Shown: positions 20,008 to 38,005 of the stretch, piece by piece
How positions within the stretch are numbered: position 1 is the first letter of the stretch
Layout: each line of letters starts with the position of its first letter
Assembly: GCA_018671175.1 (NCBI GenBank)
Contig: JABHIE010000003.1
Location: forward strand, 36,560 to 100,559
Reading direction: 5' to 3'
Length of the DNA: 64,000 bases
Source: Planctomycetota bacterium
GTDB lineage: Bacteria > Planctomycetota > UBA1135
Made by a program: the position numbers and the translations under genes
Notes under the pieces: generated by a model
What the model saw: only the letters and a program-made list of their open reading frames with translations
What the model was told of the DNA's origin: nothing
The model's database searches: none

Positions 20008-22572
20008 TTACTCGATGTCAGGGTCTGAACCGGCCACTGCTGGTGCAGTAGGCGCATCGCCGCCGATTCCATCATTCGGCTTGTCGCCGTCTTCTGGGTT
20101 GGCGGCCTCAGCCTTAAAACTCAACTTCTCAGCCCCTGCTTCGTAATCGAGCTCAATTAAAGAGTTGTTGGGCAGGTGGCCCCGAAGCATCTCTTCGGCC
20201 ATTGGGTCTTCGACGAACCGCTCAATCGCACGACGCAAGGGGCGCGCACCGTATTGCGGATTGAAGCCATTATCGATGAGGAAATCACGCGCCTTGTCAG
20301 ACAGGTGCAAGACCAAACCACGGCTGCGAATGCGCTCTTCGACCTTGGCCATCTCGATGTCAATAATCCGGAAGAGATCACTGCGCTCAAGTGGGTTGAA
20401 GTTGATGATTTCATCCATGCGGTTGAGAAATTCAGGGCGGAAGAAGCGGTTGACCTCGTCCATGATGCCAGTCTTGATCTTTTTAGAAATCTCGTCTTCA
20501 CTCGTATGGAAGCCAACACCGCCGCCACCCATAGTGACCGTGGCGCCAACATTTGAAGTCATGATGACAATCGAGTTGCGGAAGTCGATATGGCGGCCAA
20601 ACGAATCGGTTAGGCGACCTTCTTCCATAATTTGCAAGAGCATGTTGTAGACATCTGGGTGAGCCTTTTCGATCTCGTCGAAGAGAATCACGGAGTAGGG
20701 GCGGCGACGCACCTGCTCGGTCAATTGACCACCCTCTTCGTAGCCGACATAGCCCGGAGGCGAGCCGACGAGGCGCGAGGCGTTATGCTTTTCCATGTAT
20801 TCCGACATGTCAAAAACTAGCATTGACTCTTCGGATCCAAACATAAACTTGGAGAGCTGCTTGCTCATCCAGGTTTTGCCCACGCCAGAAGGGCCGAGGA
20901 ACAAAAAGCTACCTGTTGGGCGATTGGGGTCTTTCAGGCCAGAGCGCGAGCGACGGACGGCACGCGCAACTGCGCTAATCGCCTCGTCTTGATGAATCAC
21001 TGTTTTCGCGAGCTCATCTTCCATTTGGAGCAGACGCTCCGCTTCCTCGGCGGCAATGCTCGTCACCGGAATGCCTGTCATCTTGGAGATGGTCTCGGCA
21101 ATGATTTCAGTGTCAACGACTGGGCGCTCAGTCTTCTCCGACTCGCTTTCGCGCCATTCTTTCATTTTTTCTTCGACCTGGTTGCGCAACTGGTAAATCT
21201 CATCACGCTTTTTGCTGGCCGCTTCGAAATCTTGGTCACCGACAAGCAGCTCTTTCTCTAGCTCAAGTTCAGTAATTTTCTCTTCGATTATGTTTAGGTC
21301 GGGCGGTGGGGTCGTAGAGCGCAAACGCAGGCGCGCACCGGCTTCATCAATTACATCAATCGCCTTGTCGGGCAAGAAGCGGTTGTTGATGTACTTAATG
21401 CTCATGTCAACCGCTGCGGCCAAAGCCTCGTTGGTGTAGATGACCTTGTGGTGGTCAGCGTATCGGCTTGAAAGCCCAAGCATGATGTCAACGGCGTCGT
21501 CGCGGCTTGGTGGCTCAACGATGACCGACTGGAAGCGTCGCTCAAGTGCGCCGTCTTTTTCGATATTTTTGCGGTACTCGTCAAGGGTAGTTGCACCGAT
21601 AACTTGCAGCTCGCCACGAGAAAGTGCCGGCTTGAGGACATTTGCAGCGTCAATGGCGCCCTCGGCACCACCCGCGCCGACGAGAGTGTGGATCTCGTCA
21701 ATAAAGAGCACAACATTGCCAGCCCGTTGCACCTCAACCATCACGGCTTTGATGCGCTCTTCGAATTGGCCACGATATTTTGTACCCGCAATCATTCCAG
21801 CGAGATCAAGTGACACGATGCGACGGTCGCGCAGCAATTCAGGAACTTTGCCATTGATGATGCATTGAGCCAAGCCCTCAACAATGGCTGTTTTGCCAAC
21901 GCCTGCTTCGCCAAGCAACACGGGGTTGTTTTTGGTGCGACGGGACAAGACCTGCACCACGCGCTCAATTTCGTCGGCGCGGCCAATAACGGGGTCGAGC
22001 TCATCGCGTCGAGCGGCTTCGGTCAAGTCGCGGCCGAATTGGTCAAGCGATGGCGTGCGTGATTTACCACTAGCAGCACCCTCAATAGGATCATCACCTT
22101 GGAAGCTTTCGGCGGGGTCGCTGTCAGTTTCTGCCGTACCACCCAAAAATTCAATGACTTCTTGGCGGACGGAATCAAGCTGAATGTCAAGCGACATCAA
22201 AACATGTGCGGCCAAACCCTCTTGCTCTCGGAGCAAGGCTAAAAGCAAATGCTCGGTGCCCACATAATTGTGATGAAGATTTTGCGCCTCAGCGCCAGCA
22301 AGCTCAAGCACCTTTTTTGCGCGTGGCGTAAAAGGGATCTGAACCGGCGACTCAGTCTGCGCACCAGGCTTGAGGATTTTTTCAACCTCTTGGCGGATGC
22401 TAGTCAGGTCGCAACCTGTTGAAACCAAAACATTAGCGGCTACACCTTGACCCTCGCGAATCAAGCCAAGCAGGATGTGCTCGGTGCCAATGTACTCATG
22501 GTGGAAACGGTGAGCTTCGCTACGAGCGAAACCAATCACCTTGCGGGCGCGTTCTGTGAAGCGGTCAAACAT
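20008..22572 (-). CDS. clpC: ATP-dependent Clp protease ATPase subunit ClpC
   Basis: [11 protein letters not shown]-domain, two AAA+ modules ([16 protein letters not shown]), UVR-type middle domain, VGF ClpP loop. Confidence 0.96.
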
Positions 22573-31888: not shown

Positions 31889-34801
31889 ATGCGCTTAAAG
31901 CGTTTGACTCCAGATTTCCGCGTTACCGAACTCATCAACGAAGAAGAGTTACTCGGCAACGGTCCCTACACCATTTATCGTGTCACCAAGCGTGGCCTGA
32001 CCACCTTTGAGGCGGTCGATTTACTCCGCTCCGCTGCGGGCGTTGAGCGCGAAGACATTTCCTTCGCGGGTCTAAAAGATAAAGATGGCATTACCGGGCA
32101 GTTCCTGTCTGTGAAAGGTGGCAAGCCTGTTAACTTGCGCCAAAAGGCGATTACGATTCGGGCCATTGGCAAGGCGCCCCGCCCAATCGAGACAACCGAT
32201 TCCAACGGCAATGCTTTTGAAATTGTTCTGCGTGACATGGTCGCTGACGACATGCGTCGCGTTCGGGTTCACCTGAACCGCGTGAAAGACCTAGGCTTGG
32301 TCAACTACTTTGACGACCAACGCTTTGGCTGTTTGCGTCACGGTCAGGGCTTTATCGTGCGAGATTTGCTCGCGGGTCGCCCAGAAGATGCGCTCAAAAA
32401 CTTACTTGCCGCACCTTCGCCATTTGGTTCAGAAGAAGTCGAAAAGTTTAAAGCTTATTTGATGCGCTATTGGGGTGATTGGGCTAAATTGGCCAGTTAT
32501 TGCCGCGCACGGCGTGGGCATTCGGTTTTCCAGCATTTGGCTGAAAACCCAGAAGATTACCTTGGTGCACTTGAGCGCGGCGTATCAACACGCGAGCGCA
32601 CGATTCACTTGTTTGCCTATCAATCACACCTCTGGAACCGCGCTGCATCGCGTTTGGTCGAAGACATCCTCGGGCCTGAACAGTTGGCCTATCTACCTGG
32701 CGATGCCGGTTCGATGGCCGTTTGGCGCGATTTGAGTGCCGAACAGCAGGCAGAATTGGCCGCTATCGAGTTGCCTTTGCTCGGCCCAGATATGCAAGCC
32801 AGCGAAAAAGTGATGGCTGCCTATCAATCCGTCATGACCGCTGAGGGGCTTTCGATTGACGATTTTGTCCAACTCGACTTGTCTGGTTTCCGCCCTAAGG
32901 CTGACGCCCGCGCTTTCTTGGTCAATCCTGAATTCTTGCGTGCGGCTCCCGCTGAGCGAGATGAGGTTTATCGCAAGTCACGCAAAATGCGGTTGCGCTT
33001 TTCGTTGCCTCGTGGGCATTACGCCACATTGGTTGTTAAGCGTTTGTTGATGCCGACCGATTTGGTCGAAGATGGGCCTCAATTACGCATCTGGATTGCG
33101 CGACATGCGCTTGAGTGGCCCGACGCTCAGGGCAATATGCTCGTTTCCAACACCGAAGATCAACGCAATTGGGGTGATCGCGCTGGTGGCCCATGGGCGC
33201 GTCGTTCCAACGAAGATTATGGCGACAACCCACGAGGTGAGCGTCATGGTCGCGAGGACCGTTTCGGTCGCGAAGGTCGTGATGACCGCGGTGGTCGTGA
33301 TGACCGCTACGGGCGCGATGACCGCTCAGGTTTTGACCCAGTTGAGCGTCACCACGAAGACGACGAAAAGCCAAACATCCGTGTCGCGGGTGGTGTGGCC
33401 GCTAAAGTGCAGACCGATGATGGGCGCACGAGTTTGGTCGCTGGCGGAGATTATGTCCATGAGACATTTGAGCAACGGCAAGAGCGCGCCGAAGAGAAAA
33501 AGGCGGCTGCAGAGCGCAAAGCTGAAAAGGCCGCGCGTAAGGCTGAGTATGAATCGAAGTTTTCAATAGACCCTGGCGTGACGATTGGCGAACGCTTTGA
33601 AGGCCGTGTGACGGGCATTCAGAATTTTGGCATTTTTGTTGATATTGGTTTCGGCCAAGAAGGCATGTGCCCAAGCTCTGAGTTGGCCGAAGAATACACT
33701 CAAGACCCAAACACCGTAGTGAGCCTTGACGATGTGTTCGAGGTCATCATTGTTTCGGTTGATAAAGAAAAGGGTCAATTCAAAGTGTCCAAACGCATGG
33801 GTGAGCTTGAGGATTCTGAAATCCCAGCTGCTCTTGAGGCGCGTGACGCCGAGTTTGTTGCGCGTGCTGCTGAAAAAGAAGCGCGTACTCAAGGCCGTGA
33901 CACCATCGAGGAAATCGATGCGAAGGTTGGTGACCGCCTCAAAGGGCAGGTGCTTACGATTCGCGATTTCGGTGTTTTCTGTGATGTTGGTTTGTCGGTT
34001 GACGCGATGATTCCTGTTGCCGAGTTGTCATCCGAATGGGTCGAGCGCCCCGAAGATGTCGTTGCCATTGGCGATACCCTTGAGGTCGTGGTTTTGGGTG
34101 TTGACCCCAAACGCGGGCGTCTGCGCACATCCGTAAAGGCGGGCAATATGAGCGAAGGCGACCTGAATGCTTTGCTTGACGAAGTGCGCGCTCAAGAGGC
34201 CGAATATTCTGCTCGTCGTGAGCGGAAAGACAGTGGCGCTGATTTGGGCGCTGAGCTTGGCCAACGCATGAAGGGCAAAGTTACGGGCGTGCAAGATTTT
34301 GGTGTGTTTATCGACTTGGGTTTAGACAGCGATGGCATGTGCCCAACTTCCGAGCTCGATGAAAAATGGATTTCGCACCCTACTGATATTTGCGATGTGG
34401 GCGATGAAATTGAAATCGTTGTAATTGCACTTGATGGCAGTCGCGGGCGGATTAAGTGCTCGCGCAAAGTGGCCCTTGGCCCTGAGCGTGGTATTGCCAA
34501 GGCGATCGAGACCGAGAAACGATTTGCCGAGCGCCGGCAAGAAGGCGGTGGCGGCGGCCGTGGTCGCGGTCGTGATGACGATCGTCGCGGAGGCGGCGGT
34601 GGTGGCGGTGGCGCATATCGAGGTGGCGGCGGTGGCGGATACCGAGGCGGCGGCGGAGGCCGTAGCCGTGATGACGATCGCCGCGGAGGCAGCGGTGGTG
34701 GTGGCGGATACCGAGGCGGCGGAGGCCGTGGCCGTGATGACGATCGCCGCGGAGGCGGCGGCGGCGGCAACTCCGGCGGCTCCAGTCCTTGGGGGCGCTA
34801 A
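31889..34801 (+). CDS. truD: TruD-family pseudouridine synthase fused to three S1 domains and Gly/Arg-rich tails
   Basis: DFRVTE, AGLKDK, NYFDDQRFG, LFAYQSHLWN, FSLPRGHYAT TruD motifs; three G.V..I.DFG.F.D.G...G S1 repeats; C-terminal RGGGG/RDDDRR repeats. Confidence 0.9.
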   Translation: MRLKRLTPDFRVTELINEEELLGNGPYTIYRVTKRGLTTFEAVDLLRSAAGVEREDISFAGLKDKDGITGQFLSVKGGKPVNLRQKAITIRAIGKAPRPIETTDSNGNAFEIVLRDMVADDMRRVRVHLNRVKDLGLVNYFDDQRFGCLRHGQGFIVRDLLAGRPEDALKNLLAAPSPFGSEEVEKFKAYLMRYWGDWAKLASYCRARRGHSVFQHLAENPEDYLGALERGVSTRERTIHLFAYQSHLWNRAASRLVEDILGPEQLAYLPGDAGSMAVWRDLSAEQQAELAAIELPLLGPDMQASEKVMAAYQSVMTAEGLSIDDFVQLDLSGFRPKADARAFLVNPEFLRAAPAERDEVYRKSRKMRLRFSLPRGHYATLVVKRLLMPTDLVEDGPQLRIWIARHALEWPDAQGNMLVSNTEDQRNWGDRAGGPWARRSNEDYGDNPRGERHGREDRFGREGRDDRGGRDDRYGRDDRSGFDPVERHHEDDEKPNIRVAGGVAAKVQTDDGRTSLVAGGDYVHETFEQRQERAEEKKAAAERKAEKAARKAEYESKFSIDPGVTIGERFEGRVTGIQNFGIFVDIGFGQEGMCPSSELAEEYTQDPNTVVSLDDVFEVIIVSVDKEKGQFKVSKRMGELEDSEIPAALEARDAEFVARAAEKEARTQGRDTIEEIDAKVGDRLKGQVLTIRDFGVFCDVGLSVDAMIPVAELSSEWVERPEDVVAIGDTLEVVVLGVDPKRGRLRTSVKAGNMSEGDLNALLDEVRAQEAEYSARRERKDSGADLGAELGQRMKGKVTGVQDFGVFIDLGLDSDGMCPTSELDEKWISHPTDICDVGDEIEIVVIALDGSRGRIKCSRKVALGPERGIAKAIETEKRFAERRQEGGGGGRGRGRDDDRRGGGGGGGGAYRGGGGGGYRGGGGGRSRDDDRRGGSGGGGGYRGGGGRGRDDDRRGGGGGGNSGGSSPWGR
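34543..34790 (+). repeat. Low-complexity GGC/GGT repeats encoding (GRDDDRRGGGG / YRGGGG)n
   Basis: gccgtgatgacgatcgccgcggaggc and gataccgaggcggcgg units repeated. Confidence 0.9.
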
Positions 34802-36317: not shown

Positions 36318-36863
36318 CTAAGCGAGCCAGTCTTCTGCATCTACGCCAAGGCCGTCTGCGAGACGATTGACATAATTAAAATAGGCCACAACTTGGCAAG
36401 CATCGTGGATTTCGCGATCACTCCAGCCAACGGCTCGCAATTGGTCGGCATCCGAGCGAGTCATGGCTTGAGGGCTGGTTGTCAGTTTGTCGGCCCAGGC
36501 GCAAAGAGCCTTTTCGGCTTCATTTATAGGCGCGTCTTGCCAGCCATGAGCGACTAGATGGTCGGCGAGTTTGGGTTCGTTGGCCTCATCACGGAGGTCA
36601 TGCTCATGCGCTTTGATTCAGTAATGGCACTCGTTGATGCGGCTCGTCACCACGGCCAAGAGCTCACGCACTCGCTGAGAGAGCGCTGAATCAGCGCTCA
36701 TGACAGACCCATACATCATGCCGAAAGCGCGCATTTGCTTTGGGTTGATGCTAAGTAATTTACGAATATTCCAGACACGCCCTGTGCGCCGAATGGAATC
36801 TTGATACATGCGGTCGAGCAAGCCACTCGCCTCTTCGATTTCTATCTGATGAATCCAAGCCAT
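36318..36863 (-). CDS. AhpD-like/CMD-family peroxidase-related protein, probable selenoprotein (in-frame TGA at 36620-36618)
   Basis: RELLAVVTSRINECHY-TGA-IKAH continues in frame through WADKLT..P, GWSDREIHD..VVAYFNYVNRLADGLG to TAG at 36318. Confidence 0.85.
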
Positions 36864-36883
36864 CTGTCCATTATGGTATGGCC

Positions 36884-38005
36884 ATGGCATCTGACACAAC
36901 TCGACGGGATTTTTTGCGACAAACGGGGCTAGGCCTAACTGCCGCAACTCTGGGCGGTTCGCTCACGGCAGCTTCGGCTCAACAATTACAGGCTACTCAG
37001 CAATCCATACGCGCGGCATCGAGCGGCCTCAGTCAGCCGGGGCATCCCATCGCGATATCTTCGGCAAATGGTTTAGCCGCCGTGGCGGAAGCCGTCCGTC
37101 TGATGAAGGAATCACAAGTGCGAGCCGTGAGTGCGGCCGTGCGCGGAGTGGCCATCGTTGAGGCTGATCCTGACGATTTGAGCGTCGGTCTTGGTGGTCT
37201 ACCTGATGAAAGTGGTGAGGTTACGCTCGATGCGGCCTGCATGGACGGCCCGAGTCACAATGCCGGTAGCGTGGGTTGCCTCAAACGAATCATGCACCCC
37301 GCTGCTGTTGCTGAGCGCGTCATGGATCGCACCGATCACATTAATTTGGTGGGTGTAGGTGCGCTTGCTTTTGCGAAAGAGCAAGGTTTTGAAGAGGCCG
37401 ATTTATTGACGGATCGCGCAAAAGGCATTTGGGAAAAGTGGCTGAAAAACCGAGAGCCTGATGATCGACTTTGGCCACTCAATGACACGCTACCCGCCGA
37501 CCCGATTCTGCAAGGTGAGCCACGACCTTGGGGTACGATTCATTGCTCCGCGCTGGCTCCGGACGGCACGCTGGGGTGCTGCACGACCACAAGTGGATTG
37601 GCCTTTAAAATCCCGGGGCGTATCGGCGATTCGCCGTTGATCGGCTGCGGCCTTTATTGCGATAACTCTGTGGGCTCAGCAGGCGCGACTGGCCGCGGTG
37701 AAGCGGCGATTCTGTCGGGTGGCTCATGGCTGGTCGTCGAGCGGATGCGTGCGGGCGATACGCCAACCGAGGCTTGTCTTTATGCCTTACGCCGCGTAGC
37801 GGAGCAAACGGAGCGATCTGCAAAATGGCAGCCAGCACTTTGGAAAGATGGCCAGCCCAACTTTGGGTTAACTTTTTATGCTGTGCGTAAAGACGGTCTT
37901 TACGGGTCAGCATCGATGCGCGGCGCAAAGGGCTCGCGCAAGTTCGCCATATGTGACGAAAAGGGTGCACGGCTGGAGCCGTGCACCCTTTTATTTGAAA
38001 GCTAG
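36884..38005 (+). CDS. Tat-exported glycosylasparaginase / asparaginase type 2 (Ntn hydrolase)
   Basis: TRRDFL twin-arginine signal; SVG.GG.PD, LDAACMDG, GTI cleavage site, TTSGL.FKIPGRIGDSP, ATGRGE. Confidence 0.9.
   Translation: MASDTTRRDFLRQTGLGLTAATLGGSLTAASAQQLQATQQSIRAASSGLSQPGHPIAISSANGLAAVAEAVRLMKESQVRAVSAAVRGVAIVEADPDDLSVGLGGLPDESGEVTLDAACMDGPSHNAGSVGCLKRIMHPAAVAERVMDRTDHINLVGVGALAFAKEQGFEEADLLTDRAKGIWEKWLKNREPDDRLWPLNDTLPADPILQGEPRPWGTIHCSALAPDGTLGCCTTTSGLAFKIPGRIGDSPLIGCGLYCDNSVGSAGATGRGEAAILSGGSWLVVERMRAGDTPTEACLYALRRVAEQTERSAKWQPALWKDGQPNFGLTFYAVRKDGLYGSASMRGAKGSRKFAICDEKGARLEPCTLLFES

What the first reader, a model, noticed from the sequence alone, without database searches (positions are those of the whole stretch)
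36318..36863. Hidden selenoprotein: AhpD-like peroxidase with a CxxU motif
Seen: the ORF track stops at ...SRINECHY*, but after the TGA (36620-36618) the frame stays open for 99 more sense codons of AhpD/CMD-like sequence (IKAH...WADKLT..P...GWSDREIHDACQVVAYFNYVNRLADGLG). The TGA sits exactly where the second Cys of the CxYC...H motif belongs. A small hairpin CCUC-CGUGAU-GAGG has its loop about 24 nt downstream, a position compatible with a bacterial SECIS. Known: CxxU AhpD-like selenoproteins have been reported from marine metagenomes. Inference: this organism decodes Sec, and automated annotation would split or miss the gene.
Basis: partly seen in the sequence, partly recalled or inferred. 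Interest (0 to 1): 0.7.

Follow-up and report, generated by a model that had tools for sequence, protein, structure and literature searches.

The report
Known-family AhpD-like selenoprotein gene
The apparent stop codon in the middle of this small gene of a marine bacterium is very likely read as the rare amino acid selenocysteine, giving a likely antioxidant enzyme of a family described in 2005, so the find is real but ordinary.

Summary
Observation confirmed. 36863-36318 (-) is one 181-codon frame with a single TGA at codon 82 (C79-H-Y-U82). Read through, it passes TIGR01926 (141.7 bits, cut-off 81.8) and models onto Deinococcus DR1765 (TM 0.91); the TGA aligns with the second Cys of CxxC. 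The genome has selA, selB, selD (itself with TGA) and tRNA-Sec, plus RF2. TGA sits at this codon in 30 of 30 orthologue loci. The hairpin alone is no better than chance (z 0.3), but its codons are frozen across orthologues (Leu CTC 30/30) and the same loop follows the TGA of two unrelated genes in this genome. Databases hold the gene in pieces. It is a new member of the AhpD-like CxxU family (TIGR01926/COG2128), known since 2005; this scan has noted it five times on other DNA. Likely mechanism: a Sec82/Cys79 antioxidant redox centre; substrate untested. In passing, the genome carries about nine more selenoprotein candidates, two from families absent from the 2026 inventory I read (secreted U-C/U-U thioredoxin-like; FG-GAP/ASPIC-UnbV); earlier scan notes on other genomes already flagged both.

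The parts
36318..36863 (-). Gene for a 181-aa AhpD-like (TIGR01926) selenoprotein, ATG to TAG
36618..36620 (-). In-frame TGA, codon 82, predicted selenocysteine (second position of CxxU)
36627..36629 (-). Cys79 codon, first position of CxxU (predicted resolving thiol)
   Evidence: Cys in 30 of 30 orthologues
36663..36665 (-). Glu67 codon, predicted proton-relay Glu
   Evidence: Glu in 29 of 30; same spacing as PA0269 Glu36
36606..36608 (-). His86 codon, predicted proton-relay His
   Evidence: His in 30 of 30; same spacing as PA0269 His55
36584..36597 (-). Predicted bacterial SECIS core: 4-bp stem and 6-nt loop CGUGAU starting 24 nt after UGA. Orthologues extend it to 6 bp (36599-36582); this genome has an A-C mismatch there.
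36870..36875 (-). Predicted -10 element (CATAAT) 6 nt before the ATG, with a -35-like hexamer at 36897-36892; suggests a leaderless mRNA
   Evidence: genome-wide TAnnnT peak 6 nt before first ATGs, 146 of 1662 vs 6 of 1593 internal ATGs; CATAAT is one mismatch from that pattern

Best explanation
This is one 181-codon reading frame whose internal UGA is very likely read as selenocysteine, giving a CxxU AhpD-like protein that likely works as a cytoplasmic selenol/thiol antioxidant enzyme. Decoding (inferred, about 97%): SelB with Sec-tRNA(UCA) binds the stem-loop 24 nt past the UGA and outcompetes RF2. Catalysis (inferred, about 80% for a redox role): Sec82 takes the place of the exposed attacking Cys (Cys133 of M. 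tuberculosis AhpD) in a Glu67-Cys79-Tyr81-Sec82-His86 relay. It reduces a hydroperoxide, Cys79 resolves the oxidised selenium as a selenenyl-sulfide, and lipoamide/Lpd-NADH or thioredoxin regenerates it. I put direct hydroperoxide reduction first (about 45%) and reduction of the genome's own AhpC-type peroxiredoxin second (about 25%). Shown: frame, codon position, conservation, Sec machinery, predicted fold. Not shown: selenium in the protein, activity, substrate, electron donor.
For: selA 380 bits, selB 293, selD 286 with its own in-frame TGA, tRNA-Sec 77.7 bits, all over cut-off. selA matches in 40 of 41 genomes and tRNA-Sec in 40 of 41. TGA at codon 82, and as the only stop inside the tblastn match, in 30 of 30 best loci from 30 genomes at 41-99% identity, this genome included. 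Of 16 further hits, 8 have TGA there, 6 TGC/TGT and 2 did not align. Hairpin codons are frozen: Asp GAC 28/28, Leu CTC 30/30, Glu GAG 28/28, Arg CGT/CGG 30/30, against 65%, 33%, 60% and 36% elsewhere in the same genes. 92.9% of 210 cells pair, against 22-51% for slid partners, and 2 of 6 pairs have changes on both sides. The same register holds in 28 of 30 orthologues and 0 of 6 Cys homologues. Of 85,243 TGA triplets, 36 are followed by a C[CGTGNN]G hairpin; the 3 that score as coding on both sides are this gene, a PrxQ-like TxxU gene and a UxxC gene. AlphaFold pLDDT 96.3; TM 0.91 and Z 25 to 6K40. DR1765 (6K40) protects against H2O2 and needs its CxxC (review passage); PA0269 is a weak peroxidase with the same relay spacing; Mtb Cys133 is the exposed, interacting Cys. 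Lpd and TrxR are present and AhpF is not found over cut-off. One RNA-library contig spans the TGA with no differing letter.
Against: No proteomic or 75Se evidence. In this genome the hairpin is weak: -5.1 to -7.8 kcal/mol by window, borderline against the -7.5 criterion, z about 0. The orthologues are kin, so frozen codons and the shuffle control overstate significance; only 4 cells change on both sides. Sec machinery is near-universal in the sampled order, so no Sec-minus contrast was possible. The gene has no conserved redox neighbour (no flanking family in more than 6 of 30 loci). In Burkholderia AhpD the first Cys matters more than the second, so the role given to Sec82 is not universal. 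Activity of Cys homologues is weak or indirect. RNA contigs cannot prove transcription, and no silent control stretch was laid.
Confidence: 0.8

Rival explanations
1. The protein is a selenoprotein, but its job is to reduce the genome's AhpC-type peroxiredoxin (itself a TxxU candidate) in place of AhpF, as AhpD does in M. tuberculosis and Burkholderia.
For: AhpC-type Prx with TGA at G000:C29:117037; no AhpF over cut-off but Lpd present; known AhpD-AhpC chemistry.
Against: Fails the canonical AhpD model TIGR00777 (23.2 vs 191.95 bits); no peroxiredoxin among the recurring neighbours; TrxR is present and could serve the Prx; the genome is 89% complete, so a missing ahpF is not proven.
Confidence: 0.25
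2. The TGA is a true stop: a nonsense mutation, an assembly error, or a gene split into two peptides.
For: TGA is an ordinary stop here (RF2 present; 277 of 1224 long ORFs end in TGA); gene callers split the gene.
Against: TGA is the only stop inside the match, at the same codon, in 30 of 30 loci down to 41% identity; the downstream half is conserved; the called C-terminal fragments start at inconsistent places (48, 69, 80, 83, 102 aa); an RNA-run contig carries the same letters.
Confidence: 0.02
3. UGA is reassigned genome-wide to Trp or Gly, so residue 82 is not Sec.
For: One full-length database homologue (P0122, 46% identity) has Trp at this position; I could not see its DNA.
Against: RF2 is present; TGA ends 277 of 1224 long ORFs; the only UCA-anticodon tRNA found is tRNA-Sec; the in-frame TGAs that I followed up fall mostly at redox-Cys positions.
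Confidence: 0.01
4. It is a Sec-dependent reductive dehalogenase, or a reductase of another electrophile, in the manner of the AhpD-fold debrominase Bmp8.
For: Bmp8 shares the fold (Z 18.8, E 6.9e-9 by profile) and is a marine dehalogenating enzyme (review passage); the organism's DNA occurs in marine metagenomes; no substrate has been tested for the Sec form.
Against: Bmp8 is much more distant (19% identity, Z 18.8) than five TIGR01926-type structures (26-32%, Z 25); no recurring halogenase-cluster neighbours; by the end offsets of the structural alignment, Bmp8 Cys82 falls on Cys79 rather than Sec82 (inference, not checked residue by residue).
Confidence: 0.05

Closest known systems
AhpD-like selenoprotein family (COG2128 / TIGR01926, CxxU; 'AhpD-like 1' of the GOS survey; PMC1088965, PMC2398784, PMC13188914)
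   Same: Passes TIGR01926; CxxU at the same motif; in-ORF SECIS; marine source (27 Sargasso and 299 GOS sequences reported).
   Different: Nothing of substance. It is a Planctomycetota member that the databases I searched hold in pieces; the 2026 review text does not mention Planctomycetes.
Deinococcus radiodurans DR1765 (PDB 6K40) and structural-genomics relatives 2OYO, 2PFX, 3C1L, 2PRR
   Same: 26-33% identity, TM 0.87-0.91, Z about 25; same RE-x11-C-x-Y-C-x3-H motif.
   Different: They carry Cys where this gene has TGA.
M. tuberculosis AhpD (TIGR00777) and P. aeruginosa PA0269
   Same: Same Glu-Cys-x-Cys-His relay spacing; shared fold, Z 12.5 and 17.6.
   Different: Fails TIGR00777; different topology in Mtb AhpD; not next to ahpC.
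Other AhpD-related selenoprotein models (NF041238 CFYUT, NF053654, NF041047)
   Same: CxxU in an AhpD/CMD fold.
   Different: Far below their cut-offs or no hit.

Membership tests
AhpD-like selenoprotein (TIGR01926/COG2128, CxxU) | Score above the TIGR01926 cut-off over the full length | tested here: met
   141.7 vs 81.8 bits, residues 6-176
AhpD-like selenoprotein (TIGR01926/COG2128, CxxU) | In-frame UGA at the second Cys of CxxC, with Cys in homologues (Sec/Cys pair) | tested here: met
AhpD-like selenoprotein (TIGR01926/COG2128, CxxU) | selA, selB, selC, selD in the genome | tested here: met
AhpD-like selenoprotein (TIGR01926/COG2128, CxxU) | bSECIS geometry: 3-9 nt loop, 4-16 bp stem, G in the first two loop positions, 16-37 nt spacing | tested here: met
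   6-nt loop C-G-U, 4 bp, 24 nt (criteria)
AhpD-like selenoprotein (TIGR01926/COG2128, CxxU) | bSECIS energy at or below -7.5 kcal/mol | tested here: inconclusive
   -5.1 to -7.8 by window in this genome; 26 of 30 orthologues pass on a 33-nt window; bSECISearch itself was not available
AhpD-like selenoprotein (TIGR01926/COG2128, CxxU) | Assignment to COG2128 | not tested
   No COG library here; the closest solved relative DR_1765 is called COG2128 in PMC6300522
AhpD-like selenoprotein (TIGR01926/COG2128, CxxU) | Selenium in the expressed protein | not testable with these tools
   needs MS or 75Se
AhpD-like proton-relay peroxidases (PA0269, DR1765) | Glu, Cys, Cys/Sec, His relay at spacing -15, -3, 0, +4 | tested here: met
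   E67 29/30, C79 30/30, U82 30/30, H86 30/30 (reference)
AhpD-like proton-relay peroxidases (PA0269, DR1765) | Peroxide reduction | not testable with these tools
   needs an assay
Canonical AhpD (TIGR00777, AhpC reductant) | Score above the TIGR00777 cut-off | tested here: not met
   23.2 vs 191.95 bits
AhpD-related CFYUT selenoprotein (NF041238) | Score above cut-off, about 357 positions | tested here: not met
   64.9 vs 175 bits; matches only model positions 151-338
YciW-related (seleno)protein NF053654 | Score above cut-off | tested here: not met
   18.2 vs 310 bits
Bmp8-type debrominase | Bmp8 active-site residues and a bmp gene cluster | tested here: inconclusive
   fold shared, 19% identity; no recurring cluster within about 1.5 kb; active site not compared residue by residue

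The most novel reading that the evidence does not exclude
This clade of Sec-containing AhpD-fold proteins is not a peroxidase but a selenium-dependent reductive dehalogenase of marine organohalogens, a Bmp8-like bacterial counterpart of the animal Sec deiodinases, kept across a whole order of marine Planctomycetota whose selenoproteome gene callers cut in pieces.
Probability: 0.05. Interest if true: 0.7.

Novelty: new member of a known kind. Interest (0 to 1): 0.2.

Why it matters
It corrects an annotation: the gene is intact, yet of 45 database hits only one was full length, and that one had Trp at the Sec position. It shows Sec decoding is near-universal in this uncultured Planctomycetota order, and gives a clean case of a SECIS that freezes the codons it overlaps. 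It does not change what is known about selenoproteins. The better leads are the two uncatalogued candidate families elsewhere in the genome (see Noticed in passing).

Tried and rejected
Folding the hairpin alone: not significant. Simple SECIS rule as a genome filter: too permissive, 45 of 277 long ORFs ending in TGA pass; most rows of the liberal list look like gene junctions and were not followed up. Sec-minus contrast: impossible, 40 of 41 genomes have the machinery. Functional clue from neighbours: none; a divergent asparaginase-2 gene recurs in 6 of 30 loci, a downstream DUF2064-like gene (name recalled) in 6, YigZ in 5, a phosphorylase in 4. The primary Bmp8 paper was not held and the search Bmp8/debrominase/AhpD gave 0 papers, so its mechanism is not cited. 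The search for the S. pneumoniae AhpD structure paper did not list it. Genome-wide Trp/Gly recoding and a nonsense mutation were rejected (see rivals). No complex was predicted. The language-model atlas gave no result for the secreted side family, so remote look-alikes remain open. In alignment A3 one of 31 rows, L119, was given a start too far upstream; this affects only the side family's unstructured N-terminus.

Full report
Observation. The minus strand from 36863 to 36318 is one frame of 181 codons with a single internal stop, TGA at 36620-36618 (codon 82), followed by 99 sense codons and TAG. With TGA read as U the protein hits Pfam CMD and passes NCBIfam TIGR01926 at 141.7 bits against a cut-off of 81.8.

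Sec machinery. The genome (G000, 2.39 Mb, 89% complete) has selA, selD and tRNA-Sec within 4.5 kb on contig C23 and selB on C18, all over their cut-offs; selD itself has an in-frame TGA. RF2 is present, 277 of 1224 ORFs of 300 codons or more end in TGA, and the only UCA-anticodon tRNA found is tRNA-Sec, so UGA is not reassigned genome-wide. Named relatives are Planctomycetota, one labelled UBA1135; I infer the same phylum for the window. The stretch is held at 0.96 of sampled words by 14 marine DNA runs from 12 studies, one of which may be the source.

Conservation. 32 of 41 genomes of the same order, this one included, have a match. The best hits from 30 genomes were returned as loci; all 30 have TGA at codon 82 and no other stop inside my tblastn match, at 41-99% identity. 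I fetched 16 of the remaining 19 hits: 8 have TGA there, 6 have TGC or TGT, 2 did not align. selA matches in 40 of 41 genomes (one only as a short fragment, one split) and tRNA-Sec in 40 of 41, so no Sec-minus comparison was possible. One contig from an RNA run spans 36518-36750 with no differing letter; contigs cannot prove transcription.

SECIS. Alone, the hairpin is unremarkable: z 0.30 and -0.14, -5.1 to -7.8 kcal/mol by window against a published criterion of -7.5, and 9.3% of synonymous recodings pass my rule. Across the 30 orthologues, however, the codons under it are frozen: GAC 28/28, CTC 30/30, GAG 28/28, and Arg only CGT or CGG (30/30), while these codons make up 65%, 33%, 60% and 36% elsewhere in the same genes; 21 of the other 24 conserved columns tabulated have a top-codon share under 0.8 and none exceeds 0.87. 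CGT/CGG gives the N-G-[G/U] loop start of the published bSECIS model. On 35 sequences 92.9% of cells pair, against 22-51% for slid partners, with 4 cells changed on both sides; kinship inflates the shuffle control. The register holds in 28 of 30 orthologues and 0 of 6 Cys homologues. Independently, of 85,243 TGA triplets in the genome 36 are followed by a C[CGTGNN]G hairpin, and the three with coding-like sequence on both sides are this gene, a PrxQ-like TxxU gene with the identical loop, and a UxxC gene.

Structure and mechanism. AlphaFold2 on 36 sequences gives pLDDT 96.3, all-helical; the best matches are 6K40, 3C1L, 2PFX, 2PRR and 2OYO (TM 0.87-0.91, Z 25), then streptococcal AhpD (22), Bmp8 (19), PA0269 (17.6), sestrin 2 (15) and Mtb AhpD (12.5). 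Glu67, Cys79, Tyr81, Sec82 and His86 have the spacing of the PA0269 relay Glu36, Cys48, Tyr50, Cys51, His55 and are conserved in 29-30 of 30 orthologues. Sec occupies the Mtb Cys133 position, the exposed Cys that contacts AhpC, although in Burkholderia AhpD the first Cys matters more. A DR1765 mutant is H2O2-sensitive and complementation needs the CxxC; PA0269 reduces H2O2 weakly. The genome has Lpd and TrxR but no AhpF over cut-off. I therefore infer a cytoplasmic Sec/Cys redox cycle in oxidant defence, most likely direct hydroperoxide reduction with lipoamide- or thioredoxin-dependent recycling; reduction of the genome's AhpC-type peroxiredoxin is the main rival. Neighbours give no clue: no flanking family recurs in more than 6 of 30 loci.

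Annotation. Of 21 database hits of 99-317 residues, 20 are 99-103-aa fragments and one is full length, with Trp at position 82; all 24 shorter hits are fragments, including an 81-aa N-terminal piece ending at CHY and 69- and 48-aa C-terminal pieces nearly identical to this gene.

What is known. The AhpD-like CxxU family (COG2128) was reported from the Sargasso Sea with 27 sequences and a predicted SECIS (PMC1088965; passages), had 299 members in GOS (PMC2398784; passages), and is listed under TIGR01926 in the 2026 inventory of 119 families (PMC13188914; passages and parts 1-2 of 3 of section 7, which hold all of Table 1). Sec use in other Planctomycetes is reported in PMC4807772 (passages; its S9 Table of candidates was not read and may bear on the side families). 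Also seen as passages only: PMC3141380, PMC8945050, PMC6300522, PMC6626918, PMC7918430, PMC10543277 (99, nothing relevant). The DR1765 and Mtb AhpD primary papers were not read. Five earlier notes of this scan describe the same family in other genomes; my reading was set before I saw them.

Side results. A scan for read-through genes found ten further candidates counting selD: SelD, AhpC-type and PrxQ-type peroxiredoxins, three UxxC TlpA-like proteins (one without any family hit), MsrB/A, DsbD-like, and two absent from the inventory. One is a secreted protein with TGA just after the predicted signal peptide in 20 of 20 loci (U-C 13, U-U 4, other 3), Cys at that place in 5 of 17 further loci, no meaningful Pfam or NCBIfam hit in 31 members and a weak thioredoxin-like fold match (best E 0.011). 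The other is an FG-GAP/ASPIC-UnbV/thioredoxin protein with TGA in 15 of 21 loci examined (20 picked from the 67 hits, plus this genome) and Cys at that place in only 6 of 120 full-length homologues. Searches 'selenoprotein/ASPIC/UnbV' and 'selenoprotein/Planctomycet/selenocysteine' listed no paper describing them (listings only). Earlier scan notes on other genomes already report both.

Verdict. Observation confirmed, interpretation supported, Sec decoding about 97% likely, antioxidant redox role about 80%. A new member of a family known for two decades; interest 0.2.

Noticed in passing
L084 (G000:C3:36685-37668, - strand); relatives L085-L103, L104-L120: Candidate selenoprotein family not in the 119-family inventory read: predicted signal peptide, then TGA (U-C 13, U-U 4, other 3 of 20 loci), a Pro/Gly/Ala linker, a CxxC thioredoxin-like domain and long helices; 5 of 17 further loci have Cys at the same place; hairpin with a G-containing loop about 21 nt after the TGA here; no meaningful Pfam/NCBIfam hit. 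The tethered U-C could be a redox arm served by the protein's own CxxC (inference). Earlier scan notes e1-5027937 and e1-4521576 report it elsewhere.
   Followed up: partly
L082 (G000:C31, TGA at 22429, - strand); relatives L121-L140: 1055-aa FG-GAP/ASPIC-UnbV/thioredoxin-like protein with in-frame TGA and a conserved hairpin 17 nt downstream; TGA in 15 of 21 loci; full-length homologues mostly have Asn, Glu, Ser or Asp there and Cys in 6 of 120. Not in the inventory read; 34 earlier scan notes match these words.
   Followed up: partly
L075-L081, L010 (G000 contigs C29, C27, C30, C15, C23): Further selenoprotein candidates of known types: PrxQ-like TxxU, AhpC-type TxxU, three UxxC TlpA-like proteins (L077 has no family hit), MsrB/A, DsbD-like UxxC, SelD. 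About 11 candidates in a 2.4-Mb genome.
   Followed up: partly
L051, L052, L054, L055, L057, L059: A second clade of TGA-containing TIGR01926-like paralogues uses a different hairpin: loop CGGUCUG at +17 in 5 of these 6, instead of CGUGNN at +24. Possibly a separate gain of Sec or a moved SECIS; no tree was built.
   Followed up: partly
window 36863-36897: The gene is head-to-head with a predicted Tat-exported asparaginase-2 gene (36878/36884-38005). Overlapping -10-like hexamers on opposite strands (36870-36875 and 36872-36877) each lie 6 nt from an ATG. Genome-wide, TAnnnT peaks 6 nt before first ATGs (146 of 1662 vs 6 of 1593 internal), suggesting common leaderless mRNAs.
   Followed up: partly
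L074:2812-3273: An Actinomycetota homologue keeps the TGA and the hairpin (with changes on both sides of the stem) but has Ser in place of Cys79, i.e. SxxU.
   Followed up: no
P0122: The one full-length database homologue has Trp at the Sec position, probably a gene call made with TGA=Trp; its DNA could not be checked.
   Followed up: no
window 31889-34801 (+): 970-aa ORF that looks like a TruD-type pseudouridine synthase fused to several S1-like repeats and a Gly/Arg/Asp-rich tail (family names recalled from motifs, not scanned).
   Followed up: no
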